From: Eledone cirrhosa
Lineage: Eukaryota
NCBI GenBank assembly: GCA_964016885.1
Contig: OZ024758.1
Coordinates: forward strand, 32,488,001-32,552,000
Length of the DNA stretch: 64,000 nucleotides
Direction of reading: 5' to 3'
Positions 2,146 through 60,504 of this stretch are shown here, piece by piece. The position numbers and the translations under genes are program-made. Position 1 is the stretch's first letter; every line of letters starts with the position of its first letter. The notes under the pieces were generated by a model. It was not told the origin of the DNA. It made no database searches and saw only the letters and a program-made list of their open reading frames with translations.

Positions 2146-2966
2146 TATAGTTGGGGAGGGGCATATTTGTGTAATAATATTGCCAGAATTAATAACAGAA
2201 GACACTCACTGTTTGGTTGGTTTTCGCTTCTGCGTCTTTTATATCGGTTAATTTAAAAGGACAAAAAAAACGGGTCAGTACTATACGAACATGCCAGACA
2301 ACAACATGACGGTAACATAGACAACATAGAAATTAGAATATCTAAACATAGAAATGACCCAGCAGATAAGCAAATCAGAGAGGCCAGTGAAATATAACTT
2401 AGAAGGCCAAGGCTAAACAGAAAAAAATGAATGGAATAACAACAACACCCAAACAAACAATACTGACCTAAGAGAAGTATAAATAAATAAATACATACAC
2501 AAGCACAATAACAACAAACACACATAAACACACACTAGTAAACTAAGATAGAATACAATAACCAATACACAGTCACCCAAACACGAACACACATCAAACA
2601 CTACACACCCGCAAAGAAGACAAAAAAAAAAAAAATAAATAAATAAACAGACTAAATAAAGATGGCATAGGCATACAATACAACGGGAGGAAACATAATA
2701 GCACCACTGACGATGTTGCAGATGTGCAACGAAAGAACTTTGTTAGACTATATATATGTGTTTGTGTCTTATATTGTATCTGTATTGGTCAGTCAATGGT
2801 AACATTGAGGACCGAATAAATTAAATTAACCAATATAAAAGACACAGAAGCGAAAACCAACCAAACAGTGAGTGTGTTCTGTTATTAATTCTGGAAATAT
2901 TATTACACAAATATGACCCTCCCCAAGTATAACACACGATTTCATATCAAAAACCTCGCAAAACTA
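2146..2966. mobile_element. Penelope-like non-coding insertion with about 110-bp inverted arms, between (TA)n tracts
   Basis: 2146-2256 is the reverse complement of 2821-2931; HHR-like motif in the spacer; about 35-nt unpaired tail at the right end. Confidence 0.65.
2703..2744 (+). ncRNA. Minimal hammerhead-like motif
   Basis: ACCA-CTGACGA-T-GTTGCA(GATG)TGCAAC-GAAAG-AA-CTT-TGTT; weak stem I. Confidence 0.55.
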
Positions 2967-18893: not shown

Positions 18894-18961
18894 GTTGGTT
18901 AAAAGAGGAAGGACCTACCTGTTCTGCTCCTGAGGAGCAGGTTGCACAATATCCATGGGCG

Positions 18962-20611: not shown

Positions 20612-21301
20612 TTCTATCAGTTTGCCGTAATAAATTTTAAATGTAAAATTTGCCCCAAAAAGGGGCGAAAATAAATAAACTCAAAGTCTGACGACCCAGG
20701 CAAGGGGTTAACATATATTACAGTACAAAAACAATAAATCAAAACTCACTTTTGAGTAAGTAAATCCAACTCGGTAGCCGAGCTTGTTCACACACGTCAA
20801 CACACGTCTCTCGTATACGAGATGTTATGTGAGATATTATGTGAGGTAAAGTCTTTACCTTGAAAATACAATAGTATATATAGAGTAATGTTAATGTTAT
20901 GTGAGATATTATGTGAGGTAAAGCCTTTACTGTGAAATACAATAGTATATATAGAGTAATGTAAATGTTATGTGAGATATTATGTGAGGTAAAGCCTTTA
21001 CTGTGAAAATACAATAGTATATATAGAGTAATGTAAATGTTATGTGAGATATTATGTGAGGTAAAGCCTTTACTGTGAAAATACAATAGTATATATAGAG
21101 TAATGTAAATGTTATGTGAGATATTATGTGAGGTAAAGATTTTACTATTTCAGAAAGGATATATTGCACATGGCATTTAGTTTTCAGTAAATACACATTT
21201 AGGCAGTGGTGTGTGTCTATATATATATATGTATGTGTGTCGGGTTCAATCGGGGGTAACCACAGTAAGTAAGGTACTCAATACATAGCAGAGTATAAAT
21301 G

Positions 21302-21389
21302 TTTAATATAGAAATGGCTTCTACAGGACTAGTACTGTTTCCTTTGAATGAAACAGTTCTCGTCCTGTAGAAGCCATTTCTATATTAAA
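21302..21389. repeat. Short fold-back hairpin from a Penelope-like terminal repeat (3' half of an HHR)
   Basis: TTTAATATAGAAATGGCTTCTACAGGAC..CTGTTTC / GAAACAG..GTCCTGTAGAAGCCATTTCTATATTAAA; same family at 28113. Confidence 0.75.
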
Positions 21390-21544
21390 TATATCTATAT
21401 CGTTCACTGAATATACACACATTCTTGGGTTGTGTTGTTATTCCTATCCCTGTTGTTGCAGTTGTCATTGTTGTGTTGTTGCTGTTGTTGATAGTGTTCT
21501 TGTCATTGGTATTGTTGTTGTTGTCTATGTTATCAAAATAAGTT

Positions 21545-24429: not shown

Positions 24430-24688
24430 AAAACGGCAAAAAAGCACCCGGCCCACACTGTAAAGTGGACGTGTAGGCACCATGGAAAAAAGCACCCAGC
24501 ACTCACTGTAAATGAGGTTGGTGTTAGGAAGGGCATCCAGCTGTAGAAATCAAGCCAGAATCAGTTCCCGTATGAGCAAGACAAGGTCAGCCGACTGGAC
24601 ACTGCCCACAACAGGACAACCCGTCTAACCCATGCTAGCGTGGAAGAATGGACGTAAAACGGTGATGATGATGATGACGATGATGATA
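24430..24688 (+). mobile_element. SINE with RTE-derived tail
   Basis: GGTGTTAGGAAGGGCATCCAGCTGTAG...CATGCTAGCGTGGAAGAATGGACGTAAAACGGTGATGATG. Confidence 0.8.
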
Positions 24689-24696
24689 TATATATA

Positions 24697-25315: not shown

Positions 25316-25317
25316 AT

Positions 25318-25488
25318 ATCATCATCATCATCATCATCGTTTAACGTCCATATTCCACGCTTGCATGGGTTTGGACGGGGGTTTTCCCACTTGAGGCAAG
25401 AGTGGTTGTCTTGCTCACATAGGACTGTCTGGCAGGTTTTCTACGGCTGGATGCCCTTCCTAACACCTACCACATTTACAGTGTGGAA
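25318..25488 (-). mobile_element. SINE with RTE-derived tail, inserted in a (TA)n of the Helitron
   Basis: Nearly identical to the reverse complement of 34545-34715. Confidence 0.8.
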
Positions 25489-25496
25489 TTATATAT

Positions 25497-26170
25497 ATTA
25501 AAATAACAGATTAAAGTTTAAGCAAAGAATCGCTGCTTTCACCCTTAACAAGATCTTCTGAAACTAAAAGAAATCAATCTGTGAACGCAGAAGTAAATAT
25601 TTCGAAAAACGTTGCAACCGAAGGAAAACAGGAAGATGATACTTTGGTTCGTGAAGACGTTCCCTGGCAATGAATGAAAAAAAGCGAAGATAGTACGTCA
25701 TTATGTGGAGCGATGAGAACAGTTACACGGTATATATTGAGTCGTAGACTAAGATACTATTTAGGAAAATGATTCTCGGCTTTGGAGTTAAGAATAATGT
25801 AAATAAATTAGTAGAACGAAAATGACAGAGGTTATTACAATCATTAAAGTAATAATAATTAAATATATACATACACGCATCTATATACGTACATATATGT
25901 GCATACGTGAAAACACCCGCCATGCATGCATATACATGCACGTACATATAAACACGTGCACACATACATAAACCCCTGCACGCATACGAACGTATACATC
26001 AAATACACATTAAAAAATATATATGTGTGTATATACATATAATTATATAAACGTATATAAATATACACACATAAATACGTATATAACACACACATACCTA
26101 CAGGTAAATACACATATGTTCACCAAACGTATGTCAACCAAAACCCAATGTACACATATACACACCTTAC
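25497..26170 (-). mobile_element. Long copy of the Penelope-like module
   Basis: Co-linear homology with 55980-57010. Confidence 0.6.
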
Positions 26171-26794
26171 ATATGTGCAAGCACGCATACAAATATACAC
26201 AAACACAAAATACACATATACACATAACCATATACATATATACCAGTATATATAATATATTATATACACCTATAACAAATATAAGCAAATATACATACGA
26301 GAAAGTATACATACCTTCACAAAACATACAGGTAATATATACTTACCTATACAAATAAATAATACATTTTTATAGCCCAAAATATAGATTAATTTAGATT
26401 AATTCACTATTTTGAACTAACATAAATAATTCGAAATTTAACGGTCATCCGGATATGTTTGGATATATATAATTGATTAATAGTTTATTTCTAATTAACT
26501 TAAGGACTCGAAATTAAACCCTGATATAACTACACCCAGATATATTTGATATTTAGATTGATTGATTATTTCTAGATAATTCAACGATTCAAAATTATTC
26601 TTTCACAAAGGTATGCCCAAATGTATATTTATATATTTATATATCTGTTAGAACACGAAAAGTGTGAAACAACAGAATGTTCACTTTTCGTGTTCTAACA
26701 TATATGCGTAACTTCTTCATAAATTTTCCGGGGATAGCCGTGGTGGTGGTGATCGTATGTCATTGGCTAATTTTCAACCAATCAGAGTAAGTGT

Positions 26795-26828
<34 letters not shown>

Positions 26829-26894
26829 TATTCCCCCTCTCTCTATATATATCTTACGCTTTCGCTTTACACTCCTCCCCTTCAATAACACATT

Positions 26895-27370
26895 TCCCCC
26901 TCTCTATATATCTCTTATACTGTTACACTTATATTTCCATTTATTTATTACCCCCTCTCTCTATATCTCTTCCACTGTTACTTACCCCTGTTTCTCTCTA
27001 TCTGTTCCGTCTCTATATATATCTCTCTTACTCTTTCGCTTTGCACTCCTCCCCTTCAATACCATCTCTCCCCCTCTCTATATATTTGTTACTCTATCGC
27101 TGCACGCTCCTCTCCTTCAATATATCAATTACACACCGATAGTTGAACCGCCAAGTAGCGAGGTATCACAGTATATATGTTTAAATATATAGTGTGGCTG
27201 TGAAAACTGACTTTAAACGTGTTTCGGTTTACGAGCGCCGCGCCGGAACGAATTAAACTCGTAAACCGAGGTGCCACAGTATATATATATATATAAAATA
27301 AAAGAATTTATTCAGTTTTGGGACAATATAATTTTGACTGATAACAAATGTGAAATTCTTAACTAGCATC

Positions 27371-27404
<34 letters not shown>

Positions 27405-27695
27405 TATGAAACTTCTAGGTATGTCACGATGTATCTAACATTACGTTGACACTTTCCCCCTCTCTATATATCTCTTATACTGTTACACTTATATTTCCAT
27501 TTATTTATTCCCCCCTCTCTCTATATCTCTTCCACTGTTACTTACGCCTGTTTCTCTCTATCTGTTCCGTCTCTATATATATCTCTCTTACTCTTTCGCT
27601 TTGCACTCCTCCCCTTCAATACCATCTCTCCCCCTCTCTATATATTTGTTACTCTATCGCTGCACGCTCCTCTCCTTCAATATATCAATTACACA
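26895..27695 (+). repeat. About 240-bp direct repeat (26895-27135 and 27453-27695), CT-rich; the spacer holds Tigger/pogo-like ends
   Basis: TTCCCCCTCTCTATATATCTCTTATACTGTTACAC...CAATATATCAATTACACAC occurs twice; the spacer has AAACTCGTAAACCGAGGTGCCACAGTA and AGTAGCGAGGTATCACAGTA (also at 29286-29352). Confidence 0.75.
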
Positions 27696-28112
27696 CTTAC
27701 GCTTTACACTCCTTTATCCCCAGCGCCCCTATATATACACCCCCCCCCCCCGCATCTATATTTTAATGTTCCGTTGCACCGTGAATATATGTGTCTATAT
27801 ATATATACATATATATTGTATATACACATTCATGTATGTGTATACACACTCATGTATGTATATACACTGGTTTTATGTGTGTATTGTAAATTTGTACTGT
27901 TAAAACACGAAACTAACATTCGATTGACACTTTGATTACCTGTACAGGCAATAGTTATTAGAATGCTGTTGAAGTGTGTATATATTTTTGGGGGACATCC
28001 TGTATATACACACATTATATATAATACAATAAACAGATAAATACACACATATATATATGAGCTTATTTAATTATAAATATTGTGAATTTTTAACTCAGTT
28101 CAATTATATATA

Positions 28113-28170
28113 TAAATGGCTTCTACAGGACTAGAACTGTTTCATTCGAAAGAAATCATCATAATATTGA
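28113..28170 (-). ncRNA. Degenerate minimal hammerhead motif
   Basis: Minus strand: ATGATGA-TTTC(TTTC)GAAT-GAAAC-AGTTCTA-GTC-CTG. Confidence 0.4.
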
Positions 28171-28858: not shown

Positions 28859-28862
<4 letters not shown>

Positions 28863-29160
28863 GAAGAATGATAAAATTTCAAGCAAAGAGTTTAATTAGA
28901 TAATGACTTACAAATTTGTTTCAGTATATATTTAATATAATATTAATATATTTTGTAATATTATTAACTAATTATTATAATTAGCGCTTCAGGCTTTGTC
29001 TATATACTGAAACAAATTTGTAAGTCATTACCTAATTAAACTCTTTGCTTGAAATTTTATCACTCTTCGTTTTGAATTTCTCCTAAGTATTCAATACTCT
29101 GTTGAGAAATACATTTTACATAAACAGTCTTTGTACCATTTATACGGTATTAATTACTTA
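28859..29160. repeat. Fold-back with about 72-bp arms (28859-28930 / 29000-29072) plus tail
   Basis: AAACGAAGAATGATAAAATTTCAAGC...TTTGTTTCAGTATATA and its reverse complement; the right arm has GAAAC-AAATTT-GTA (HHR 3' half). Confidence 0.75.
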
Positions 29161-29349
29161 TATTTATATATATATATATATAGCGTATGATTAGAACTGT
29201 GTTTATTATTAATATTTTAATGGATTTAATGAAAAATTTTAGGTGTTCATATATATATTCTAAAAATGCGCGAAATCGTGAATCCGCGATAGTTGAACCG
29301 CCAAGTAGCGAGGTATCACTGTATATATGTTTAAATATATAGTGTAGCT

Positions 29350-29814
29350 GTGATGTATCTCGCGAGTGAATCGAGACCTGTCACTGATTTTGGTGTCCCC
29401 ACTGCCGATGTGAATGAGCAACGCTGCACTTGTGAATTGGGTCTTGATGTTGCAGGCAGTTCATATACTTACAAAGATGCAGTCCCACAAGCTTGTTCAC
29501 ATTCCTGTGCTAATAATCTAGATGGGCGTATTAAATTGGATGTGAAAGCAGCTTACCGGATGCGGAATCGGGAGAAGTTGAGACAAAAACAGGCCGATTA
29601 TAGAGCTGTGAATTTTGCTAAATTAACACAAAAACAGGCCAAGTATAGATGTTCAAAACGGTATGAGTTGGCAAACAAGCAGGCCAAGTATAGATCTGCA
29701 AATTCAGCTATTATATCTCAAAAGCAAGCCGAGCGTAGAGCTTCTAAACGTACCGAGTTGGCTAAAGAGCAGACCAAGTACAGATCTGCAAATATCTTAT
29801 TGCACAAACAATAA
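29350..29814 (+). pseudogene. Fragment encoding 15-aa basic repeats (KQAxYR), possibly a Helitron-type N-terminal repeat region
   Basis: KLRQKQADYRAVNFA/KLTQKQAKYRCSKRY/ELANKQAKYRSANSA/IISQKQAERRASKRT/ELAKEQTKYRSAN; repeats diverge more in DNA than in protein. Confidence 0.45.
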
Positions 29815-31320: not shown

Positions 31321-31868
31321 ATGTGCAATAAGAGCAAAATATAACGACATTGCTCAATTATTTTATCTAATGTTGTAATAACACAAGGAAATGTTGTTTG
31401 TGTATTTTTTTTTATATTTGCTCATAGGCTTTTACAATTTCGCTCAGCCAACAACTATTAAAAAGTGAGTTGCTTAAGATAACAATTTAATCACAAATTG
31501 TTGCTATCTTTTAATACACTCCAACAAGTCATCAAATTATGTACAATAAAAACAAATCTTATTAATTTGCTCAGGGAATATAAAGAAAATGTATATACAC
31601 TGATAATTGCAATTGTATGTAAATATTTTGTTTTTGTATTGTTTATTTTGTTTTCTATTATGTATAATATATTGATTTAATATTGATTGTTTTTTGTAGT
31701 TGTTTATATTAAAAGTCTGAAAATATTTTTATACATCTTACACTAATATTTATAAGATAATTTATAATAACAATTACATAATCTAATTACATTACAACGA
31801 TAATTTATTATTAATATATATCCTGTTTAACTAGAGTTATTACAAGCGTTGCCTTAAAAAAATATTAA

Positions 31869-32825
31869 ACTAGACATGAAAAATGCGCAAGCTCAAAAGT
31901 GCCACAGAATGTTATAATAAACCTTCAAAAGTGTGGGACTAGAGTTGTTGCTAAAAAATATTGTAATCATTATATATCGTACATTCTGTGGCATCCTTTA
32001 TAAAAATAGCTTAAACCAACGAAGCCTTTATTTTTACGCTATTTCACTTAGTTAATTCTTAGAGTGTAACATATAAAAATAAATACATCTATGTTTAATG
32101 TAATAACAGCTATAAATAATTACGTAATATTATTATCATATACTCATAGTAACAAAATAATTGTGTTGAAAATTAATATGATGCTTATATGAACGATCAA
32201 ATCTATAATGATAATTTCTTAAATATACTAATAGTAAAATAATTTAGTTATCTATTGTTACATTTTCATAGAACTATAATATTAACAATCGTATTGCATT
32301 ATCAAATTTTTATCACTACAAACTTTCATATTGGAATTACCTTAAGCCACTTATTATTACTTCGCTTTCGTACTTTTACAGCTGTAGATATTGCGCTGTA
32401 TCTTATATCTAATATCAATATCTCATGGTAATTTGCATGCAGTGTAAAATAGGTTTATTAATAACTTTAATATGAAATGTATTATACAGGGCTGCGGAGT
32501 CGGCCAAAAATTGACTGGCTCCAACTCAGGATCCGATACTCCATTATTTCCTAAATTTCAGCTCTGCAGCTCTGTTATTATATTAATTAATTTATTTTAT
32601 AGTTGTAAATCATATTTTTATATGTTACACTCTAAGAATTAACTAAGTGAAATAGCGTAAAAATAAAGGCTTCGTTGGTTTAAGCTATTTTTATAAAGGA
32701 TGCCACAGAATGTACGATATATAATGATTACAATATTTTTTAGCAACAACTCTAGTCCCACACTTTTGAAGGTTTATTATAACATTCTGTGGCACTTTTG
32801 AACTTGCGCATTTTTCATGTCTAGT
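31869..32825. mobile_element. Element with about 213-bp near-perfect terminal inverted repeats (ACTAG...CTAGT)
   Basis: 31869-32081 vs 32613-32825, one mismatch seen; each arm has an internal IR TGCCACAGAATGT/ACATTCTGTGGCA. Confidence 0.8.
32487..32574. mobile_element. Small hAT-type MITE
   Basis: CAGGGCTGCGGAGTCGG ... CAGCTCTGCAGCTCTG with a 7/8-matching TSD GTATTATA/TTATTATA. Confidence 0.65.
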
Positions 32826-32874
32826 ATATATATATATATAGTTAAAAGAATAGAGGTGTAACACACAAGTTATT

Positions 32875-33187
32875 ATATATTGGTAAACGGAATAGAAAAT
32901 GCTGACAAATTGTTCACAGTTGAAAAATGGTTTAATTAGGAATAAAAGAGTATTAGTGATTGTATGGGTTAGTATTCAGTTGTGGTTTTAAGTTTTTAAG
33001 TTTTTACCGGTTGCGCATTTCTAAATGCTTTTCAAAAGCATTTAGAAATGCGCAACCGGTAAAAACTTAAAAACTTAAAACCACAACTGAATACTAACCC
33101 ATACAATCACTAATACTCTTTTATTCCTAATTAAACCATTTTTCAACTGTGAACAATACAATTTGTCAGCATTTTCTATTCCGTTTA

Positions 33188-33196
<9 letters not shown>
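32875..33196. repeat. Fold-back palindrome with about 155-bp arms and a 1-nt loop at 33032
   Basis: ...CATTTCTAAATGCTTTT-C-AAAAGCATTTAGAAATG...; arms differ by one 5-nt indel; about 34-nt tail at 32841-32874; (TA)n on both sides. Confidence 0.92.
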
Positions 33197-33261
<65 letters not shown>

Positions 33262-33269
33262 TGCATCAT

Positions 33270-33775
33270 CTAATTATACGCTATTTATCCACGACAATAC
33301 AAATCTCCCTCCTTATGCTTTATACAATAAAAATTATTCTTCCTTGTCTCTCTATCCTTAATCAATTCTCTCTTGCTTTCGTGCATAAGTTATTTCTATA
33401 CTTCTAGTAACTATCTTTTTCCTCATCTGTTTCTCTCTCTGTCTTTCTTCAATAATTTAAATTATTTGAATCTCTAACAGTTATGTAAATTGCTATTATC
33501 TATTTTTATAAGCTTTCTCACACGCACCCTCTGTATTATATGTAATTTTTTCATGTCTCAATCTTAAGATATATAAATATTGAGTTTTGTCATATCTTAT
33601 TCGCTGCCATGACTGAATCTTAACCATCTACTAAGTCAGGGTATGTCATGCATCACCCTATTTTACTTGTCCCAATAACTTTATTTAGTTATTGCTCGCA
33701 CTAACCAGAGGTATATGATTTTTAAAGCGATGAAATACCAATGAAGGTTGGAAGATCACTGATGAAGGACTAATT
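33270..33775 (+). mobile_element. Penelope-like terminal-repeat fragment with k-turn-like stem and CUGAUGA
   Basis: 3' 100 nt homologous to 24320-24426. Confidence 0.5.
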
Positions 33776-33828
33776 TTATTCATATGTAACCCATGTGCAA
33801 CCATGCAGCACTCCATTTTTCTTATATT

Positions 33829-34202
33829 TATACAATATATTAACAAATGGAAACTATATTTATAAAACCATATTTATTTTATTATACATATTTCAAGGGC
33901 CACCAAGGCAAATTATGGTGCGCTTTCATCAGATGAAATACAATACAGATTAGTTTTATAAATAAATATTGACATACCCTGAAAAAAGACAACCTTAACG
34001 GTTGGAGCTTCCTGGATAGGAACCTCCAACCGTTAAGGTTGTCTTTTTTCAGGGTATATCAATATTTATTTATAAAACTAATCTGTATTGTATTTCATCT
34101 GATGAAAGCGCACCATAATTTGCCTTGGTGGCCCTTGAAATATGTATAATAAAATAAATATGGTTTTATAAATATAGTTTCCATTTGTTAATATATTGTA
34201 TA
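33829..34202. repeat. Fold-back palindrome (about 185-bp arms, 4-nt loop) with an HHR-like motif in each arm
   Basis: GGAGCTTCCT-GGAT-AGGAACCTCC centre; CTGATGA-AAG.GCACCA..TGGTG..CTT-GAAAT-AT-GTA at 34099-34146; a third, non-palindromic copy at 35105-35352. Confidence 0.9.
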
Positions 34203-34379
34203 TTTACTCCAATAAACTGTTAAGTGCTTTATATCAGTTATAAAAATATTTTTTAAGCTTGTATCCCAACAAATTAAATATAACCTCTGCATATATATTT
34301 ATATACATATATATGTATATATATATATATGTGTGTGTATATATATATATGTGTGTGTATATATATATATATAAAATAC

Positions 34380-34717
34380 ACCCCCACCCTATCCACACCG
34401 CCCCTTTCAATGTAAAGTTATGTTGGTGCCACAACATCCAGGCCGAAACAAATGAGGTCGTGTAGGTGTCACGACAAAAAAAAAAAAACACACAGTCCAC
34501 GCTGTAATGTGGCCAGGTAGGTAACACGGTAAAAACCTCCCAGTCCCACACTGTAAATGTGGTTGGTGTTAGGAAGGGCATCCAGCTGTAGAAAACCCGC
34601 CAGACAATCCTATGCGAGCAAGACAACCACTCTTGCCTCAAGTGGGAAAACTCCCGTCCAAACCCATGCAAGCGTGGAATATGGACGTTAAACGATGATG
34701 ATGATGATGATGATGAT
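34380..34717 (+). mobile_element. SINE with RTE-derived tail
   Basis: Very similar to 61370-61833; ends GGACGTTAAACGATGATG. Confidence 0.85.
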
Positions 34718-34750
34718 ATGTATATATATATATATGTATATATGTATATA

Positions 34751-34793
<43 letters not shown>

Positions 34794-34907
34794 ATATATA
34801 TATATATATATATTTATTAAAATAACAGATTAAAGTTTAAGCAAAGAATCGCTGCTTTCACTCTTAACGGGATCTTCTGAAACTATTATTATTATTATAT
34901 ATATTTA

Positions 34908-34991
34908 TACAATATGTTGAAAAGGTAACACACCAGAGAGATATATATGTATATATATCTCTCTGGTGTGTTACCTTTTCAAAATATTGTA
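34908..34991. repeat. Short fold-back hairpin with a (TA)n loop
   Basis: TACAATATGTTGAAAAGGTAACACACCAGAGAG / CTCTCTGGTGTGTTACCTTTTCAAAATATTGTA. Confidence 0.85.
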
Positions 34992-35074
34992 TTTTAAAGA
35001 GCTCAGCATTTCTTCTCCTTTGAGCACATTATTTACAGGGAATGGCGAGGGCCTATGGCTCCATCATTTATCGT

Positions 35075-35110
<36 letters not shown>

Positions 35111-35346
35111 GAGGTTATATTTAATTTGTTGGGATACAACAAGCTTAAAAATATTTTTATATTTTTATCCAGGAAGCTCCAACCGATAAGATTTTCTTTT
35201 TTTCAGGGTGTCAATATTATTTTATAAAACTAATCTGTATTGTATTTTATCTGATGAACGCGCACCATAATTTGCCTTGGTAGGCCTTGAAATATGTATA
35301 ATAAAATAAATATGGTTTTATCAATATAGTTTCCATTTGTTAATAT

Positions 35347-35418
<72 letters not shown>

Positions 35419-35464
35419 TAGATAGATAAATATACACGGGTGTGTATGATTGTGTATAGAAGAT

Positions 35465-35855
35465 TATATTAATAAGAGGAATTCCAGCTTTGTTTGATTT
35501 ACTCGTTTTATTTACAATCTTTTAAAATTTATAATGGTATTATAATGAAATAGTATGATAGAATATTAAATTCTAAGTGTTAATTGAACAAGTACTTTCA
35601 TGCTTTCGCAATCTTCAGGTTCATGATATGTGGTGACAGTCAAGTTTGCAATTTTCAACAGTTGAAAATTGCAAACTTGACTGTCACCACATATTATGAA
35701 CCTGAAGATTGCGAAAGCATGAAAGTACTTGTTCAATTAACACTTAGAATTTAATATTCTATCATACTATTTCATTATAATACCATTATAAATTTTAAAG
35801 GATTGTAAATAAAACGAGTAAATCAGACAAAGTTGGAATTCCTCTTATTAATATA
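35465..35855. repeat. Fold-back palindrome (about 195-bp arms, 1-nt loop at 35660)
   Basis: ...GCAATTTTCAAC-A-GTTGAAAATTGC...; a few transition mismatches; about 35-nt tail on the left. Confidence 0.92.
35698..35734 (+). ncRNA. Minimal hammerhead ribozyme (mirror copy at 35586-35622, minus)
   Basis: GAAC-CTGAAGA-TTGC(GAAA)GCAT-GAAAG-TA-CTT-GTTC; palindromic stem III AGTACT. Confidence 0.75.
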
Positions 35856-37649: not shown

Positions 37650-38839
37650 TCTATAATATAAAGCTGACGGCCGTATGTATGTAACAAACTTTTTGGCAAA
37701 CGGCTGGACCAAACAACACCAAATTTCCACCATAGATGTAACTTTTTCCAAGTAAAAAAGTGAGGGTATTTTTGTCTACTGAACTTTGTTAAAAGATTAA
37801 AGACATTATTTAAATTTCAACACTACCGGTTATACGACATTCCTCACTTTTTATTAGTCTGTCTTTTTAGATAAATACATAGCTATGACGTCGCACACTT
37901 ATAATATGTCTCTGTATGTCTGGCTGTCTGCATTAGATAACGTTTTTCGAAATATTTACTTCTGCGTTTACAGATTGATTTTTTTAGTTTCAGAAGATCC
38001 CGTTAAGGGTGAAAGCAGCGATTCTTTGCTTAAACTTTAATCTGTTATTTTAATATATATATTTGTGTACAGATATTTTTGCATACACAAAAACAAAAAC
38101 CTATTTATTTCATGAAAGCAGATACATGCGCACATTTAAAGTACAGGGCCAAGTGTATCACACGATTGGAAGTCTCCTATCTCTAACCTATGAAGACCAC
38201 GACTTTTTACAAATCTACTTCATTGGAGATGCAGATTCACATGCGATACATCACCATCGGGCCATCCCAGGAACCAGACTTGAAAACATTCGCCAGTTAC
38301 AGGACATATTAAGCGACTTCAGTTTCCAATAAGACTAAGCTTCACGATTACCATCAACAAAGCTCAGGGTAAAAGTGGCTGGCCTTCATCTGGGAAAACC
38401 ATGCTTCTCCCATGGTCAATTGAATGTAGGATGCTCTAGGGTTAGCTCGCCTAACAATCTCTTCATCTTTGCTCCCGAGGGCCGAACAAAAATATTGTAT
38501 ACTCTGAGGCTCTAACAATGTAATTTATGTATTTTCTGTTACTTGGAATTTCCATTATGGTTGTACAAATTATTGTAAAGTTTGTAAAAAATTTGTTCTC
38601 TGTTCAGCCTTTATTGTTGTAACTATCAATTTTCTTTAAAATACTGTCTGCTGAATTGGGGAATCCTAAAAACTATTCAAACCCAACATGAGAGCACATT
38701 AACCCCCACCAACCCCCTCACCACAACCTCGCAGACTTGAGAGGGTGTGCAGTATCTTTGCACTGGAGTGGAGGGGGGAATGCTGAAAAGATAAAATGCT
38801 GGTATACCTAGCCGGGCGCCAGCCGGATGGGCCAGCTAG
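37650..38839 (+). mobile_element. Non-autonomous Helitron (A|TC ... hairpin-CTAG|T) with Rep/Hel remnants
   Basis: 5' TCTATAATATAAAG; TFKVQGQVYHTIGSLL..FLQIYFIGD (Helitron N-terminal region); TINKAQG..CFSHGQL..SRV (Pif1); 3' GCCGGGCGCCAGCCGG..GCTAG. Confidence 0.9.
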
Positions 38840-38867
38840 TATATATATATATATGTGTGTGTATATA

Positions 38868-38919
<52 letters not shown>

Positions 38920-38920
<1 letters not shown>

Positions 38921-40770
38921 GATAACAAGTTATCTTTATAGGTAATCCAGTTAGCGGTTGTGAGTACTCTGTATGTGGATAGTTTTAACGTATGGTGTTG
39001 TTTGACTCAACAAGAGGTTTCCATAGTTAGGTAGTGAGTTCGCGAGAATTCCTATGCAGGTGATTCTTGGAGTAATAATAGTGAAAGATTGAAGAATAAC
39101 ATGGTCAGCTGTACAAAAAGGGTTTTATTTCAAGTATTAATTGTTTCATTGATCAGGTGAGTCTAAAGACCACTAATCACTCAAAGTTGCATCACTCGAC
39201 CTTAAATACAGTGTTTACCTCTGATCAAATCATCGGAATACTGGAGGTATTACATATGGCATTGGTATATATATACAACGGAGAATCAAAACAATAACAT
39301 TAATAATAAAAGATAATGTTAAAGAGGTAAAGAAGTTACAGATGTAAAAAAAAATAAGTAAAAAAATAATAATAAGTACAGAATACAATAGCTGATAATA
39401 GTGGTGGTAGTGAGTAAGCTTATGTGTAAAGATGTGGTGAGGGTGGAGATAATACTAACACGAAAAGCAACATTAGATACATACATACATACTTGGTGGT
39501 CAAATCTCAGAGGGTTATAAGTAGAGAATAAAATGACAGATAAAAGATAAAAAATAATAAATTAAAAATTAAGTGAGAGGGGAAGAGATACGAGGATGAG
39601 ACATAAGGGGTAGGGCTAAGGATGGGGAAGGAGTAGATAGAGGATAAAAATTGAGAGGAAGAGTTTTGATATATGTGTGTGTGTGGTAAATGACTAGCAT
39701 GCTGATTGTCTTATCTTAATGGAGTTGGTGTGGCTTTAGGGAGAGAGAGTAAAAGAAAGGTTAGGAGATTTATGATGTTGATCTAGTGACCAGTTGGTCA
39801 GTTGACAGCTAATAACAGTGGGGTGGTATGTAGTTAGTACATTAAAATCCGGGTGGTTCAGCTCGAATTTTGGGATTGCTGGATCGAATCATGTTGGTTT
39901 GAAATTTGTGAACTTGGTAGCTGCTTTGTGCCTACAGAACATTGATCGTCGTTCTATTTTGTTGTTAAGCAGCATCTTATCATACTTTAAACTATGGAAC
40001 AGCTACATATTGCAAAGTCCGCAGTGGGACATTTCATTGTTGTAGGCCCTTGTTCCCGATAATTTCGACCAGCTAATCCTGTATTCTTGGTTTGTGTCCT
40101 TGAGCTGCTGGATTTAATTGGCCAGCGTTGTTGAGTTCTCTAGTTTATGGTTCTTCATAGAGTGTCTGTGAACGTACCATATTATTTTAACTCCCCAGGC
40201 TTGGAACCTATGTAGTGCCATGTTAAGTTGCCCGAATTTATAGTACACAGGTACACTATACTTGATTCCAGGTATCTATTTTGTAGTGGGCATTTATCCG
40301 GCAGGTGGCAGTTACAGCTGGGGGCCTTCCTGTGTGCAGGTTCTCCGTTGCGGTTTTGTATGTTGTTATGGATGGGCTGAGATTTAGGCTTATTGATGTT
40401 TTGTTGAGATGTGCCCAGACGTGTTTGTGGTTGTGATGTTGTTATGTGTTTGTGTTTTGTATTTGATGCTATGGTGTATGTTGGTAGATTATTTTCTTCT
40501 GTAGTTGACTTTATGTATGTGTGATTCTATGTTGGCTGCAGTAGAGTAAGAGAGTTTGATAGTGTTTCTGAGGGATATACTATGTCCTATAGAGTTAATT
40601 ATGGAGCGAGCGTGGTTTGAGTTATAACTAATGTAGGCTAGATACTCTTTATTTTTATGGAGAAGCTCTATTAGTCCTGTGTTTAGTTTGAGTGTTACAT
40701 CTAAGAAGTTTGCATTTTTAGAGTTAAGTGCGAAAGTGATACCTAGGCCTAGTTTGTTGTAGTTTATGAA
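38920..40770 (-). mobile_element. Decayed Penelope-like element (Neptune type): RT thumb, GIY-YIG and 3' terminal region
   Basis: NANFLDVTLKL..YISYNSNH..SISLR (ORF 40489-40866); my translation of 40325-40200 minus gives SCNCHLPDKCPLQNRYLESSIVYLCTINSGNLTWHYIGS. Confidence 0.85.
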
Positions 40771-41415
40771 GCTGTGGTCATTTCCAACCGACCAAATCAA
40801 CCACAGGAGGTCAAATCCTATGTGGGTATGGCGGAGGGCCAATTTAAGGAACGCTTCCTGAACCACCAGTCAACCTTTAGGTACCCGGACAGACGTTCAT
40901 CCACGAAACTCACGAGCCACGTATGGTCCCTCAAGGACTCAAGTATAGACTACTCCATTCAATGGAAAGCCATCACTAAGTCCAAGCCATACACAAGGAG
41001 CAATCTGTCATGTGGGCTATGTATTGATGAACGAATAAAGAGATTGCGCAATAATGATTGCCTAAACTCGAGGAATGAATTCTTCACACGTCCACATGTC
41101 TGGAAACACCTCTTACATAACTACAAAGCTCCGGATTGAATTACAACAACATCCTAATTTTCTTATCAACTAGAAACTTTCGGACTTTCGCAGTTATCTC
41201 CCTAACACCTCTCACACGCAATTTAGTATTGCCTGTGTGAAGTGATCTTTTCTGCGCATGCGCGTTCGTACGGTTGTCCTTCCTGTTCCGTATAACCATG
41301 TCCATTACGAGCTGAGGATCCGCTAAGGTGAAACAATTGTTCTCGGTATGGTGAACTAACTGTTGTGTAACCACTTCTACCTAACTCGTCCCATGCCCTG
41401 CCACTACGGATATTA
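40771..41415 (+). mobile_element. Penelope-like element 3' end (Neptune-type GIY-YIG endonuclease plus pLTR)
   Basis: ORF 40774-41139 SYVGMAEGQFKERFLNHQSTF..TKLTSHVW..IQWK..CGLCIDE..LNSRNE; HHR downstream. Confidence 0.9.
41308..41345 (+). ncRNA. Minimal hammerhead ribozyme in a Penelope pLTR
   Basis: CGAG-CTGAGGA-TCC(GCTAA)GGT-GAAAC-AATT-GTT-CTCG; palindromic stem III ACAATTGT. Confidence 0.75.
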
Positions 41416-41889
41416 CCTTCCAGTGTTCTACCACTATATATATATGTATATGTGTATATATGTGTGTGTGTATATATATATATATATGTATGTATATGTA
41501 TATATATGTGTATATATATATAAATATGTGAAGACTAAAATCTGAATAAATATGATAAAAATATATATACATACATGTACGTATATGTGTGTGTATGTAT
41601 GTGTACACATGTGTGCGTATACATGTGTATATATATATATGTGTGTGTGTATGTATATATATATAAATATGTATATACATATATATGTGCGTGGGTATGT
41701 ATGTATGTATAGATAGGCCCCTGAGTAGTCCAGTAAGATGATCTCTCTAGTGCTGGTGGCACGAATAAAAGCACCCAGTCCATGCTGTAAAGTGGTGCTG
41801 GTGTTAGGAAGGCATCCAACCAATATATATACTAATGCCAAAAGTTATGAGCACAACAAATGAGAATTGCAACAACTGCTTAAACAGCA

Positions 41890-44800
41890 ATAACACTAAC
41901 CATGTTAGGGCTGCGCACGGTAGTGGGGTGGCTAGTGAGGCCATGTGTGAGAACCCTCCCGAGCGTCATCAAGCAATCGCACAGCAGGGAAAAGAATGAG
42001 ACGTCGCATCTCAGAGTTGCCACACTTAATGATGGCACTCTAACAGGTAGATCTGGTGAGATAGCGGAGATACTGGAGAAAAGGCAGGTGGATGTGTGCT
42101 GTGTGTAAGAGGTGAGACGGAGAGATGCCTCTGCAAGACTAATCGCAGGCAAACATCGTAGTTATAAGCTTTTCTGGGTGGGTAATGATAATGGGTTTAG
42201 GGGAGTAGGCATTTTCCTGGCTGAGAGATAGATCAATAGGACAATAGAGGTAGTTCGAGTTAATAATCGAATAATTAAGCTTAGATTAGTTGTAGGCAGG
42301 AGACTACTGACAATCATCTCTGCCTATGTTCCCCAAGCAGGCCTAGGCAAAGAAGAGAAAGACTGCTTTTACGAGCAACTTTTACAAACAGCCGCAATGA
42401 CAGAGGACGGAGACATCGTTATGCTAGCAGGGGTCTTCAATGGTCATGTTGGATGTTCAATTTTGTGATGCACATGCACTACTAACTTCCAGAAACCTAC
42501 CAGCCACCTAATAACCTACAAATCAGGCGAGCACATAAGCCAGATTGACTTCTTGCTAGTTAGGCAATGAGACCGATAGATGGTGTCAAATACTAAGGCA
42601 TACCCCGGAGAAGAATGTACCCCACAGCATAGGTTAGTCATTAGTGACATCTCAGTAAGCAAGAGACAGGAAGGTGTGGAAAAGAAAGGTCTGGAAGCTA
42701 AAAGACCTTTCACTAAAATATAAATTTATAAAGCCCTTCAAGACGTGTATGACGAAAAAGAAGATGATTTAGAGTCGTATGACATAGATGATAACTGGAA
42801 TTTCTTACGTGACAACTTACTACAGGCTACTGAAGAAATTTGCGGCCGGAGCAGAGCTCCATCTAGACAAAGAGTGACCTGGTGGTGGAACAGCACAGTA
42901 GATAAGGCCATTAGAGACAAAAGACTAGCATGGAAGGCTTGGAAAAATGGTGGGAGTAGAGAAGGATACACAGCCGCTAAGAGAGAAGTTAGACGTCAGG
43001 TGTATTTAACATGCAGGGAGGCTGAGAGTAGGAGGTTTGCCAATGTTCTGCGACGGGTAGATCAGAGGCGTGCGGTGTTCCACATTGCAAGGCAGTGTGT
43101 CAATGCAAATCACGATGTTGTTGGAGATAAATGTATCTGGGATGATGCCGGTGTACTTAGTGTCACGAATGATCAGAAAAAGGAGGCCTGAAAATGTCAT
43201 TATGAAAGACTGATGAATGTGGAGAATGAATGTGAGAGAGAGAAATTACACCCAGTAGATCTGACAGAGGGACCAGCTATTGAGATTGACTAATATAGGG
43301 TCCAAGAGGCAATTAAGGAAATGTAAAATGGTAAGGTGCTGGACCGTCGGGGATAGTTGCTGAGATGCTGAAGGCATCAGGAGAAGTAGGCACTAAACTG
43401 GTGGCATGCATCATCAATGAAGCTATATATGGTGGTGTCATACCCAAAGACTGGTGCAGCAGTATTCTCATAAATTGCTATAAAGGTAAAGGCGATGCTC
43501 TGGAGAGGAGCAATTATAGGGGTACAAAGCTGATGGATCAGGTTATGAAAGTGGCAGAGAGAATATTAGAGCAACTGTTTAGAGAAAGGGTCAGATTAGA
43601 TGAGGTGCAGTTTGGTTTTGTGCCTCGGAAAAGTACAGCAGATGCCCTCTTCTTAGTGAGACAATTGCAAGAGAGGTTCTTAGAGAAGAATAAGCCACTA
43701 TACTTAGCCTTTGTTGACCTAGAGAAGGCCTTTGATAGGGTGCCCCAATCTGTCATCTGGTGGTCCCTAAGGAAACTAGGTGTTCAGGAATGGCTTGTGA
43801 GGACAGTGCAAACTTTGTACAGAGGTGCTGTCAGTAAAGTCAGGGTAGGAATGGAGTTTAGTGAAGAATTCCAGATACAAGTAGGAGTACATCAAGGTTC
43901 AGTCCTCAGCCCGCTCTTGTTCATTATAGTCCTCCAAGCCATAACAGAGGAGTTTAAGACTGGCTGTCCATGGGAACTTCTCTATGCTGACGATCTGGTT
44001 CTTATAGCAGAATCAGTAGAGGAGCTAGAGAATAAATTCTGGCTATGGAAACAGCAGTTGGAAGCAAGAGGACTGAGGGTGAACCTAGCTAAGACAAAAG
44101 TGTTGATGAGTAGAAGAGAGGACAAAACTCTGATGTCGACAAGGAAATGGCCATGTTCGATATGCAGAAAAGGAACTGGCATAAATTCTATAAAATGTAC
44201 ACAATGCAGATCTTGGGTACATGGGAGATGTAGTGAGATAGCAGGCAAACTAACAGGTAAGGAAAAATACGTATGCAGTAGATGTACAGGGAAATTTGAC
44301 AGTAGAAGTCGCATTGATAGACACATTTCTCAAATGCAGGTAGGATCTATAGAAGTGGTTGATAGCTTCCAGTACCTAGGTGATCAGATTAGCATGGTAG
44401 GAGGGTGTTCTGGGGCCATAGTATCTAGAGTAAGGATGGGTTGGAAGAAGTTTAGGGAGCTGCTTCCTCTGCTGACGAAGAAGGGTTTCTCCCTGCGTAT
44501 GAAAGGCCGGTTATATGATGCCTGTGTGAGGTGCGTGATGCTGCATGGTAGTGAGATATGGGCAGCAACTGCAGAGGATATGCAACGGCTGGAGGGAAAT
44601 GAAGCAAGCATGCTCCGTTGGATGTGCAATGTCATTCTGTCTGAACGACCGAGCATGGATGAGTTGAGAGAGAAACTGTGTTTAAGAGGGATAAGTTGTA
44701 GTGTGCGGAAGAGTAGACTGCGATGTGATGTGCATGGAGGATGACCCATGGGTGAAGAAGTGCCAAAAAATCCCAGTAGAATGAAGACGCAGTAGAGGAA

Positions 44801-59890: not shown

Positions 59891-60379
59891 CCTTGTCTGG
59901 CTTTCTGGAGAATAGAGGAAAGGTGTTTCCTCGAAAACCAGTATGACTAAAAAAAACGGTTTGTCTGTGTGTTTACATACAGAATAGCTGGACACTCACA
60001 GTAAAGTGACCAGTGAAAAACTCAGTACATCTACATATGTACACGTGTGTGTATTCATATGCATACTAGTATTTCAGTATACATATGTGGATGTACATTT
60101 TTGACTTAATTGTTTAAGCGTCAGTCATACAAAAGTGAGTTACAAACGAAACGAAATTTAATTTCGTTTCGTTATTTGTTTTTTATACATATATATATAC
60201 ACATATAACCAAAGATTAATATGGTTTATTGATTACTCAATGAACATAGTTTTACAATAGATTATAAGAACTCTACAAAGAAGTTTTCTGGAGTTATTAA
60301 TATTATTCAGTCAATACTGCCAATACTGGAATTGAACCATCAAGACTGTTGAGGTATGTCATACATCAATTCATGTATT

Positions 60380-60438
60380 TTATCTGATGAGGACGTACTG
60401 AAAAAACAGCACAGTAACTTCGAAATATATACAATAAA
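60380..60438 (+). ncRNA. Hammerhead-like motif in another pLTR remnant
   Basis: CTGATGA-GGA.GTACTG..CAGTAAC.TTC-GAAAT-AT-ATA-CAATAAA; stem I poor. Confidence 0.45.
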
Positions 60439-60483
60439 ACATATTTTGATTATGTGAATGTCTCCTTTTATTAAAATTCTGAA

Positions 60484-60504
60484 TACACATATATATATAT
60501 ACAC

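What the first reader, a model, noticed from the sequence alone, without database searches (positions are those of the whole stretch)
32841..35855. Cluster of unrelated near-perfect fold-back palindromes in (TA)n, with mirror-image ribozymes and a one-sided tail of about 35 nt
Seen: three long palindromes of different sequence within 3 kb (32875-33196, 33829-34202, 35465-35855; arms 155-195 bp, loops 1-4 nt) plus a small one at 34908-34991. Two carry an HHR motif in each arm pointing outward. The three long ones each have about 35 nt of extra unpaired sequence beyond one arm only. The same architecture recurs at 2146-2966 (tail about 35 nt) and, with longer tails, at 21302 and 28859. Established: Penelope insertions often have an inverted truncated pLTR lacking the short 3' tail. 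Inference: several PLE families here target (TA)n and, when heavily truncated, deposit pure hairpins. This would be a genome-wide source of long dsRNA (ADAR or Dicer substrates) and cruciform-prone DNA, possibly excisable by the outward-facing ribozymes.
Basis: partly seen in the sequence, partly recalled or inferred. Interest (0 to 1): 0.75.

Follow-up and report, generated by a model that had tools for sequence, protein, structure and literature searches.

The report
Penelope retrotransposon ends form DNA palindromes
These mirror-image DNA stretches are most likely the short ends of Penelope-like retrotransposons inserted head-to-head into TA repeats, a known habit of these elements, but their exact symmetry and unusually long one-sided tails give a handle on how such elements insert.

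Summary
The palindromes are real: P1 32874-33197, P2 33829-34202, P3 35465-35855 and P4 34907-34992, with 0-4 arm mismatches and loops of 1-4 nt. P2 and P3 carry a minimal type-I hammerhead in each arm, facing outward. Rfam misses both, but P3's matches the signature of Hydra-clade Penelope-like elements (PLEs), and P2's covaries with a relative at 60384. Hydra-type PLE ORF remnants lie at 38919-41437.

Corrections: P2's tail is about 89 nt, not 35; a sister insertion at 35107-35354 carries part of it. Tails in the window fall into two groups, 30-43 and 70-93 nt. 'Excision by ribozymes' fails: one transcript has one sense ribozyme, and the hairpin buries it.

Best reading: head-to-head PLE 3' ends, made from two cDNAs started at the two published initiation sites, with symmetry from cDNA snap-back (inferred). 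Inverted copies, tails, (TA)n targets, junction palindromes and opposite-strand ribozyme pairs are all published. The ORF-less symmetric form and the long tails were not found in the papers read. P1 and P4 are unassigned, and a SINE forms a similar palindrome. Verdict: new variant of a known kind, interest 0.4.

The parts
32874..33197 (.). P1 palindrome; arms 159/164 nt, loop 1 nt, no ribozyme; element sense is the minus strand (tail-bearing left arm); right end runs into (TA)34
32841..32873 (-). P1 one-sided tail, about 34 nt, ending at (TA)8 (32825-32840)
33829..34202 (.). P2 palindrome; arms 185 nt, 2 mismatches, loop 34014-34017
34091..34156 (+). P2 right-arm type-I minimal hammerhead: 8-bp helix I (one mismatch), long helix II, palindromic helix III, predicted cut after 34148
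33875..33940 (-). P2 left-arm mirror hammerhead (core at 33932)
34203..34291 (+). P2 one-sided tail, about 89 nt; its distal 53 nt are also in the sister copy
34907..34992 (.). P4 small palindrome centred on a TA run; arms 42 nt, 1 mismatch
34993..35076 (+). P4 one-sided extension, about 85 nt, up to (TA)15; membership of the element not shown
35107..35161 (-). Sister insertion of the P2 family: distal tail piece, inverted, 3' end at (TA)15
35166..35354 (+). Sister insertion of the P2 family: tail-less arm with hammerhead (core 35251); 10 mismatches and 3 gap columns in 191 against the P2 left arm; ends in (TA)n
35435..35464 (-). P3 one-sided tail, about 30 nt
35465..35855 (.). P3 palindrome; arms 195 nt, 4 mismatches (all transitions), loop 1 nt
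35696..35736 (+). P3 right-arm minimal hammerhead of Hydra-clade type (U after the first core box and U before GAAA; cut after U 35730)
35584..35624 (-). P3 left-arm mirror hammerhead (core at 35618)
31823..32833 (.). Adjacent asymmetric inverted pair: arms 31862-32081 / 32613-32833 (98.6%), 531-nt spacer, about 41-nt one-sided extension on the left; no ribozyme found; PLE or DNA transposon unresolved
33259..33828 (+). Older repeat remnant with a decayed ribozyme core word at 33759 and a relative at 24304-24421; P2's left end abuts it
38919..41437 (.). Two different Hydra-type PLE remnants head-to-head between (TA)n arrays: RT thumb and endonuclease on minus (40749-39820), endonuclease on plus (40756-41139), hammerhead core at 41312 with the same U..U signature as P3
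59333..60188 (+). Tandem pLTR-like repeat (468-nt offset) with Rfam-recognised hammerheads and a 22-nt inverted stub (59333-59354) that matches 60095-60116, about 70 nt before the 3' end: independent long-tail example
60373..60490 (+). Distant relative of the P2 arm: hammerhead with covarying helix II; ends in (TA)n at the position of P2's tail-less end
21299..21392 (.). Small palindrome with an 8-nt loop closed by a 4-bp inverted microhomology that is also in the non-palindromic sister copy at 28105-28155; about 70-nt extension on the left
2146..2966 (.). Asymmetric inverted pair between (TA)n arrays: arms 111 nt, spacer 564 nt, tail 35-43 nt
28859..29165 (.). Asymmetric inverted pair between (TA)n arrays: arms 72 nt, spacer 70 nt, extension about 93 nt

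Best explanation
The palindromes are complete insertions of Penelope-like retrotransposons (at least P3 of Hydra-clade type) reduced to two head-to-head copies of the element's 3' end. Steps: (1) the GIY-YIG endonuclease nicks both strands of a (TA)n target (published in vitro for another PLE; inferred here). (2) Each 3' end primes a cDNA, one at the outer start site (giving the tail) and one at the inner start site (tail-less); the tail is the distance between the two sites, 30-43 nt in some families and 70-93 nt in others (published principle; long class seen here). (3) One cDNA snaps back on 1-4 bp of microhomology and copies itself; the new sense strand is complementary to the other cDNA and anneals to it, so the product is symmetric whatever the second cDNA's length (inferred). 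(4) Without snap-back, or after later loss of one side of the centre, the usual asymmetric inverted structure results (inferred). Serial insertion into the same expanding (TA)n tract explains the cluster. The ribozymes are passengers of the duplicated 3' end, not an excision device. My odds: PLE origin 0.9 for P2 and P3, 0.7 for P1, 0.55 for P4; two cDNAs given PLE origin 0.8; snap-back as the main cause of symmetry about 0.5.
For: Ribozymes: a type-I descriptor finds 6 hits in the window, 4 in the P2/P3 arms and 2 in the tandem repeat at 59.4-59.9 kb, against a mean of 0.025 in 200 shuffled windows; arm shuffles hit 0 of 5000 (P2) and 1 of 5000 (P3). Helix III is self-complementary, as in PLE dimeric hammerheads (PMC4209133). 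P3's U..U core signature is in 14 of 26 Hydra-clade rows of File S2 of PMC8557442 (counted by eye); in the window it occurs 3 times, twice in P3 and once behind the Hydra-type endonuclease at 41312. P2's helix II shows double-sided changes against 60384 at 3 of 5 lower pairs and 2 of 4 upper pairs. Tail: the sister insertion has tail piece and arm both ending in (TA)n with none of P2's left flank, and the 60384 relative ends at P2's tail-less site. All 9 candidate pairs other than the sister copy have one-sided extensions of 30-43 nt (4 of 9) or 70-93 nt (5 of 9) up to a TA run; window-wide chance is 0.017 for 25-45 nt and 0.054 for 25-95 nt per side. Symmetry: 5 of 10 candidates have spacers of 8 nt or less; independent exponential truncation gives P at most 5e-4. 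Snap-back: at 21299-21392 the loop follows the tail-less arm and closes on a 4-bp inverted word that is present in the longer sister at 28108; a single self-primed cDNA from that arm cannot supply the tail. PLE coding remnants: profile hits at 40179-39820 (1.4e-15) and 40427-40203 (5.3e-8), RT-thumb tblastn hit 40749-40567 (1.3e-7).
Against: No arm is linked to a PLE ORF: no profile hit below E 1 lies in 31.8-35.9 kb, and four 10-11-nt arm words had 0 matches in the Naiad/Chlamys/Hydra consensus file. Rfam gives no hammerhead hit for P2 or P3 at E up to 10 although the control at 59367-59438 scores 3.9e-9. The conserved G10.1-C11.1 pair is absent in both. Monomer folds are not better than shuffles (z 0.11, 1.34, 0.00). 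My descriptor was written after seeing the motifs. Covariation rests on 3 sequences of 2 families (22 of 500 shuffles reach it). All four palindromes are flanked by TA on both sides, which also fits a TA target duplication. The cluster is richer in TA runs than the window average, so chance values are too low there, and symmetric pairs are easier to find than asymmetric ones. P2 and its sister share the same 5' boundary, which favours a fixed RNA end over random snap-back; the sister may itself be a decayed palindrome, so it cannot show which P2 arm owns the loop. The 21.3-kb element is not shown to be a PLE. A SINE forms a head-to-head palindrome too.
Confidence: 0.72

Rival explanations
1. 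Same PLE origin and two cDNAs, but symmetry arises because both cDNAs run off one fixed RNA 5' end (promoter start in the pLTR, or a short non-autonomous RNA) and are end-joined; or a master copy already holds the palindrome and is copied as a unit.
For: Both P2 arms and the independently inserted sister arm start within about 5-9 nt of each other. Arm lengths (159-221 nt) resemble rotifer pLTRs of 181-218 bp, which carry promoter motifs and inherited 5' palindromes (PMC3846280). In vitro, 5' truncation of the template sets product length (PMC11167929). P3's right arm starts with an initiator-like word (recalled consensus; no call).
Against: The 21.3-kb sister copy runs past the palindrome centre. 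The SINE palindrome is centred about 12-17 nt inside the SINE's 5' end. Other candidates have very unequal arms (22-nt stub against more than 800 nt at 59.3 kb). P1 and P2 centres show no initiator-like word.
Confidence: 0.3
2. Host fold-back (replication or break repair at cruciform-prone (TA)n) duplicated the ends of already inserted repeats; PLE enzymes are not needed for the inversion.
For: P4 is centred on a TA run. A SINE palindrome (13260-13586, spacer 5, one arm lacking about 33 nt of the 3' end) and three other non-PLE inverted pairs (11794-12077, 22399-22497, 26641-26705) lie in the same window. Self-annealing 3' ends with 2-bp microhomology give inverted duplications at L1 breaks (10.1101/2024.12.14.628481).
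Against: Host fold-back has no reason to stop a family-specific distance before the element's end and land in (TA)n; three copies of the P2 arm and the 60384 relative end at the same internal site. Tail lengths fall into two narrow groups.
Confidence: 0.12
3. The palindromes are MITE- or foldback-type DNA transposons with TA target duplications, and the 'tails' are host flank.
For: Each palindrome has TA on both sides. P1, P4 and the 31.8-kb pair have no ribozyme and no sister copy.
Against: P2's tail travels with the arm in a separate insertion. P2 and P3 arms hold PLE-type hammerheads. Single arms occur alone (35166-35354, 60373-60490). A TA run lies 30-93 nt beyond one arm in all 9 candidate pairs.
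Confidence: 0.08
4. Fold-back artefacts of library preparation or assembly.
For: No reads were available. P1's arms have no substitution.
Against: Arms differ by 1-4 substitutions or a 5-nt indel. Inversions stop at element ends and do not run into flanks. Diverged sister copies and older palindromes (14% arm mismatch) exist. The structure matches published PLE insertions.
Confidence: 0.03

Closest known systems
Hydra-clade Penelope-like elements (PMC8557442; passages, section 11 and supplement parts read)
   Same: (TA)n target; hammerhead about 100-200 nt from the 3' end with the U..U core variant and frequent cleavage after U; Penelope-13_HM is listed with a 5'-truncated inverted copy and a ribozyme on each strand; CxCX5C linker in the window's ORF remnants.
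   Different: No ORF in the palindromes; spacer 1-4 nt; tails of 70-93 nt in some families against the 30-40 bp stated for PLEs; P3's helix III has G15.2-C16.2 where the listed rows have C-G; P2's ribozyme has a long internal-looped helix II and an A-U closing pair.
Adineta vaga Penelope (Pen2a, Pen3a) inverted pLTR insertions (PMC3846280; parts 1-4 of 5 read)
   Same: Head-to-head inverted pLTRs of about 180-220 bp, optional 31-bp tail on one side, palindromes at the inverted junction, self-priming proposed.
   Different: There the junction palindromes named are 18-38 bp and flank an ORF, with 8-10-bp target duplications; here the whole insertion is a 320-390-bp palindrome in (TA)n. That paper invokes self-priming on an antisense RNA; here two cDNAs plus cDNA snap-back are proposed.
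Poseidon PAc of Anolis in vitro (PMC11167929; parts 1-2 of 4 read)
   Same: Both strands nicked and extended at AT-rich DNA; two internal RT start sites define the tail; ribozyme cleavage is not needed for insertion.
   Different: PAc starts lie in the first 111-150 nt of the ORF and need no homology to the target; here the sense arms have no open frame and most tail-less ends are TA-rich.
Opposite-strand min-HHR pairs in Schistosoma mansoni (PMC4209133; parts 1-2 of 4 read)
   Same: Dual minimal hammerheads about 100-700 bp apart on opposite strands, ascribed to truncated PLEs; here 84 and 167 bp between cores.
   Different: That paper does not describe arm symmetry, tails or targets in the parts read.
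Non-LTR retrozymes (10.64898/2026.07.22.740005; part 1 of 5 read)
   Same: Non-coding PLE-derived repeats with type-I hammerheads.
   Different: Retrozymes are direct tandem repeats, which allows ribozyme dimers and circles; P2 and P3 are inverted. The 59.3-60.2-kb repeat is the closer match.
L1 twin priming and fold-back inverted duplications (10.1101/2024.12.14.628481; passages read)
   Same: Two primed cDNAs per insertion; 3' ends self-anneal on 2-bp microhomology.
   Different: Twin priming gives non-overlapping inverted pieces with a poly(A) end (recalled); here the same segment is copied twice and there is no poly(A).

Membership tests
Penelope-like element (EN+), insertion structure | 5'-truncated copy in inverted, head-to-head orientation | tested here: met
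   P1-P4 arms; orientation fixed by ribozyme strand in P2 and P3
Penelope-like element (EN+), insertion structure | 30-40 bp tail on one side only | tested here: inconclusive
   One-sidedness met in all four. Length met for P1 (34) and P3 (about 30), not met for P2 (89) and P4 (85). Only P2's tail is shown to be element sequence
Penelope-like element (EN+), insertion structure | Type-I minimal hammerhead with palindromic helix III near the 3' end | tested here: met
   P2 and P3; absent from P1 and P4 arms
Penelope-like element (EN+), insertion structure | G10.1-C11.1 pair / match to Rfam hammerhead models | tested here: not met
   A-U in P2, U.U in P3; no Rfam hit at E up to 10. U.U is common in Hydra-clade rows; the P2 relative at 60384 has G-C
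Penelope-like element (EN+), insertion structure | Linked RT plus GIY-YIG ORF | tested here: inconclusive
   None within or beside the palindromes, as expected for truncated copies; ORF remnants of other families at 38919-41437. Linking needs the host genome
Penelope-like element (EN+), insertion structure | AT-rich or (TA)n target | tested here: met
   7 of 8 ends of P1-P4 at TA runs or degenerate TA runs; P2's left end at a short TA-rich word
Penelope-like element (EN+), insertion structure | Target-site duplication or empty-site allele | not testable with these tools
   Masked by (TA)n; no second haplotype or host genome available
Hydra clade | C-terminal GIY-YIG with CxCX5C linker, RT phylogeny | tested here: inconclusive
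   Motifs seen by eye in the 38.9-41.4-kb remnants and their homologues; no tree built; Pfam gave no GIY-YIG hit for the remnant or 14 of 14 homologues scanned. P3 is tied to the clade only through its ribozyme
Hammerhead ribozyme (active) | Self-cleavage | not testable with these tools
   Predicted to be blocked in the full hairpin; metazoan min-HHRs cleave weakly and as dimers
Non-LTR retrozyme | At least two direct tandem units, each with a hammerhead | tested here: not met
   P2 and P3 units are inverted
MITE / TA-targeting TIR transposon | Element bounded by its two TIRs, flanks unrelated between copies | tested here: not met
   For P2, sequence beyond one arm recurs with the sister copy, and single arms occur. 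Untested for P1, P3, P4 (no sister copy)
MITE / TA-targeting TIR transposon | TA target duplication | tested here: inconclusive
   TA on both sides of all four, uninformative in (TA)n

The most novel reading that the evidence does not exclude
Inverted PLE insertions are routinely born as perfect palindromes (two target-primed cDNAs, one snapping back and annealing to the other) and the textbook 'inverted 5'-truncated pLTR' is often their decay product after one-sided loss from the centre; the P2 sister at 35107-35354 would be such a fossil. This genome has a second class of PLE with 70-93-nt spacing of RT start sites, and the same machinery also mobilises a SINE (13260-13586). Active PLEs would then keep seeding 150-200-bp perfect hairpins into (TA)n tracts, a self-made source of dsRNA for editing and silencing.
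Probability: 0.2. Interest if true: 0.72.

Novelty: new variant of a known kind. Interest (0 to 1): 0.4.

Why it matters
How PLEs make tandem and inverted insertions is named as an open question in PMC8557442, and the in vitro study leaves the steps after first-strand synthesis unvalidated. Short, ORF-less, nearly undiverged palindromes are clean records of those steps: loop origin, microhomology, centre position and tail length can be counted across a genome and separate snap-back from run-off at a fixed RNA end. Tails of 70-93 nt widen the stated 30-40 bp rule. In practice such elements are likely to be mislabelled as MITEs or miRNA hairpins (many sub-threshold Rfam miRNA matches). If transcribed they would be strong dsRNA (-250 to -303 kcal/mol), but nothing here shows transcription.

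Tried and rejected
Rfam at gathering threshold: 0 hits in the window. E-value mode on the cluster: 60 matches, mostly miRNA models, all below their gathering scores, read as generic hairpin matches. Rfam on the P2 and P3 ribozymes alone: no hammerhead family. The repeat finder was swamped by microsatellites.

A possible endonuclease C-terminus in 2254-2445, noticed by eye, found no support: 0 of 5 candidates scored and the Hydra-type profile did not hit it; it stays unassigned. The word-index protein search and the PDB search of the 40801-41136 endonuclease found nothing; the exhaustive search found 3385 relatives at E up to 0.001. The Atlas gave a GIY-YIG label for 3 of 30 hits, at 15% of members for the row shown.

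Octopus Naiad 3' ends and Hydra-1_Obim's 3' end did not match the arms by eye; only 6 of 59 supplement parts were read. Tail regions show no consistent stem-loop: 1 of 9 folds had z below -2. No open frame spans any sense arm.

ADAR-editing origin of P3's mismatches (4 of 4 are G.T on the plus strand) was considered: four events cannot be polarised without a family consensus, and P2 and P4 do not follow. Arm mismatch as a clock was rejected because conversion can homogenise arms. My first argument, that P2's loop is native to the tail-less arm, was withdrawn: the sister's junction can be read as a microhomology join at exactly P2's boundary. Ribozyme excision was rejected. No tRNA gene was called in the SINE. 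Bacterial, phage and plasmid collections were not searched, being irrelevant to an animal repeat. No eukaryotic genome collection, reads or RNA data were available.
Full report
Setting. The window is 37% GC with no N, with 52 merged (TA)5+ arrays, decayed LINE reverse transcriptases and SINE-like repeats. It is an animal genome. A cephalopod or other mollusc is my inference from recalled repeat types, from sparse Atlas taxon labels and from a by-eye likeness of one endonuclease to Hydra-1_Obim; it was not established.

The observation. Self-BLAST and arm alignments confirm four fold-backs. P1 32874-33197 has no substitution and one 5-nt indel; P2 33829-34202 has 2 mismatches in 185; P3 35465-35855 has 4 in 195; P4 34907-34992 has 1 in 42. 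Loops are 1, 4, 1 and 2 nt. Ten shuffled windows gave no non-TA arm above 18 bp. The four are unrelated to each other. One-sided extensions reach the next TA run after 34 nt (P1), about 30 nt (P3), 89 nt (P2) and 85 nt (P4). Two further members were missed: a sister of P2 at 35107-35354 and an inverted pair at 31862-32833 with a 41-nt extension.

Ribozymes. A type-I hammerhead descriptor, written after I had seen the motifs, found 6 hits in the window: both arms of P2, both arms of P3 and two tandem copies at 59385 and 59853. Shuffled windows gave 0.025 on average, and arm shuffles 0 and 1 of 5000. Rfam recognises the 59.4-kb control (HH9, E 3.9e-9, below the gathering score) but not P2 or P3, and their monomer folds are no better than shuffles. 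Three things argue that they are real PLE ribozymes. First, helix III is self-complementary (dimer energies -4.2 and -7.2 against -6.2 kcal/mol for the control), a hallmark named in PMC4209133. Second, P3 has a U after the first core box and a U before GAAA and cuts after U; 14 of 26 Hydra-clade rows in File S2 of PMC8557442 show that U..U pattern (counted by eye), and Hydra-1_Crog shares a 15-nt word with P3 (by eye). In the window the pattern occurs 3 times: twice in P3 and once at 41312. Third, P2's ribozyme has a relative at 60384 with double-sided changes at 3 of 5 lower and 2 of 4 upper helix-II pairs; this rests on 3 sequences and 22 of 500 shuffles reach the score. That relative has a substitution at the conserved U16.1 and is probably dead.

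PLE context. The 41312 ribozyme follows a GIY-YIG-type frame (40801-41136) with 3385 relatives. The longest relatives show the RT catalytic word, the thumb and a CxCX5C linker, as described for the Hydra clade. A profile of the best 150 finds a second, different remnant on the minus strand at 40749-39820; the two face head-to-head between (TA)n arrays and share no detectable DNA similarity. Pfam names neither the remnant nor 14 of 14 relatives scanned. No coding hit lies in the palindrome cluster, so no arm is tied to an ORF.

The tail is element sequence. The sister copy consists of the last 53 nt of P2's tail, inverted, joined to a tail-less arm 5% diverged from P2's (10 mismatches in 191 columns). 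Both its ends abut (TA)n and it carries none of P2's left flank, so it is a separate insertion. The 60384 relative also ends at the tail-less site. The tandem repeat at 59.3-60.2 kb, with its Rfam-recognised ribozymes, begins with an exact 22-nt inverted stub that ends about 70 nt before the 3' end. Among 9 candidate pairs other than the sister, extensions are 30-43 nt in 4 (P1, P3, 2146, 31862) and 70-93 nt in 5 (P2, P4, 21299, 28859, 59333). Chance is 0.017 and 0.054 per side window-wide, higher inside the TA-rich cluster. Four further inverted pairs examined (11794, 13260, 22399, 26641) were left out of this count because they lack TA-run ends or belong to other repeats.

How it most likely works. 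Shown elsewhere: a PLE protein nicks and extends both strands of AT-rich DNA and starts at two internal RNA sites whose spacing is the tail (PMC11167929). Inferred here: two cDNAs, one per target strand, give a head-to-head pair with the tail on one side. This alone does not explain symmetry: 5 of 10 candidates have spacers of 8 nt or less, against 1-8% per event under independent truncation (P at most 5e-4; ascertainment favours symmetric cases). I favour snap-back: one cDNA folds on 1-4 bp, copies itself, and the new sense strand anneals to the other cDNA. The best case is 21299-21392, where the loop continues the tail-less arm and closes on a 4-bp inverted word also present in a longer sister at 28108; that arm's cDNA cannot have supplied the tail. 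That element is not shown to be a PLE. The main rival is run-off at a fixed RNA 5' end, or copying of a palindromic master, because P2 and its sister share one 5' boundary. The two can coexist.

Results against. A SINE at 13260-13586 forms a head-to-head palindrome with a 5-nt spacer, and one arm lacks the last 33 nt or so; it is not in (TA)n and its loop follows the tail-bearing arm. P4 is centred on a TA run and could be a host fold-back. P1 and the 31.8-kb pair have no ribozyme and no sister, and TA flanks also fit a DNA transposon.

Consequences. The hairpins would fold at -250.5, -291.0 and -302.8 kcal/mol, so transcripts would be long dsRNA; no transcription was shown. Excision by the ribozymes is not supported: a transcript of either strand holds one sense ribozyme, the inverted partner cannot provide the dimer, and the first helix-I pair has probability 0.0 in the full hairpins (0.13 for P3's right half alone, 0.0001 for P2's).

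What is known. Inverted 5'-truncated copies, a 30-40-bp tail at one end and (TA)n bias: PMC8557442 (passages; section 11; 6 of 59 supplement parts). Palindromes at the inverted junction and a self-priming proposal: PMC3846280 (parts 1-4 of 5). Opposite-strand ribozyme pairs 100-700 bp apart: PMC4209133 (parts 1-2 of 4). Retrozymes: 10.64898/2026.07.22.740005 (part 1 of 5; supplements closed). L1 fold-backs: 10.1101/2024.12.14.628481 (passages; supplements closed). An Octopus vulgaris repeat annotation lists 31 recently active Penelope-like families and has no occurrence of 'palindrom' (PMC13282606, passages; supplement listed, not read). Nine searches surfaced no paper on ORF-less, spacer-less PLE palindromes or on 70-90-nt tails; most hits were seen as listings only, and subscription papers and Repbase are not covered.

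Verdict. Works like: a PLE inverted insertion. Membership: P2 and P3 probable PLE ends, P3 Hydra-type by ribozyme only; P1 and P4 unassigned; none is a retrozyme. New variant of a known kind; interest 0.4; the bold reading has probability 0.2 and would merit 0.72.

Noticed in passing
window 13260-13633: Head-to-head SINE palindrome (86% arm identity, 5-nt spacer); the left arm lacks about 33 nt of the 3' end that the right arm and five other aligned copies keep, a PLE-like asymmetry in a SINE.
   Followed up: partly
window 38919-41437: Two different Hydra-type PLE families joined head-to-head with no TA run at the junction near 40760; either two insertions or one event with two RNAs.
   Followed up: partly
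window 59333-60188: Tandem pLTR- or retrozyme-like repeat, 468-nt offset, 98.9% identical over 363 nt, two canonical hammerheads, 22-nt inverted stub, no ORF.
   Followed up: partly
window 61915-61965 (minus): Another minimal hammerhead-like motif (fold z -2.39) about 100 nt from a (TA)n run; missed by my descriptor.
   Followed up: no
window 3349-3444: Weak hit to the endonuclease C-terminus profile (E 0.0013), probably another decayed PLE.
   Followed up: no
window 2254-2445: Stop-interrupted frame that looks by eye like a GIY-YIG C-terminus inside the 2146-2966 inverted pair; searches gave no support.
   Followed up: yes
window 24686-25613 and 37939-38850: Related elements in opposite orientation (88-96% in blocks), ending in a GC-rich hairpin plus CTAG against (TA)n, as does 59290-59310; Helitron-like by recall. 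A fragment of the other end lies in the cluster at 34797-34900, with copies at 24042-24116 and 55964-56052.
   Followed up: no
window 20822-21146, 21554-22388, 47227-47650: 72-nt tandem arrays inside a dispersed repeat; the first two face each other around the 21299 palindrome, and a 39-bp-arm hairpin lies at 22399-22497.
   Followed up: no
window 11794-12077 and 26641-26705: Older or shorter inverted pairs with 23- and 17-nt spacers, unassigned.
   Followed up: no
window 15466-20680 (minus): Long, frameshifted L1/Tx1-like element with zinc-knuckle ORF1, RT and zf-RVT pieces.
   Followed up: no
window 43335-44744: RT frame with a PHD finger (E 4.5e-06) behind the RT domain.
   Followed up: no
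window 62474-64000: GC-rich 26-nt satellite, at least 58 copies at 96% match, running off the window end.
   Followed up: no
window 35465-35855: All 4 arm mismatches of P3 are G.T on the plus strand; too few to tell deamination from RNA editing.
   Followed up: partly
window 26828-27696 and 27137-27203 / 29287-29353: Pyrimidine-rich internal duplication (249 nt, 98.8%) next to (TA)15, interrupted by a 67-nt repeat with a second copy 2.1 kb away.
   Followed up: no
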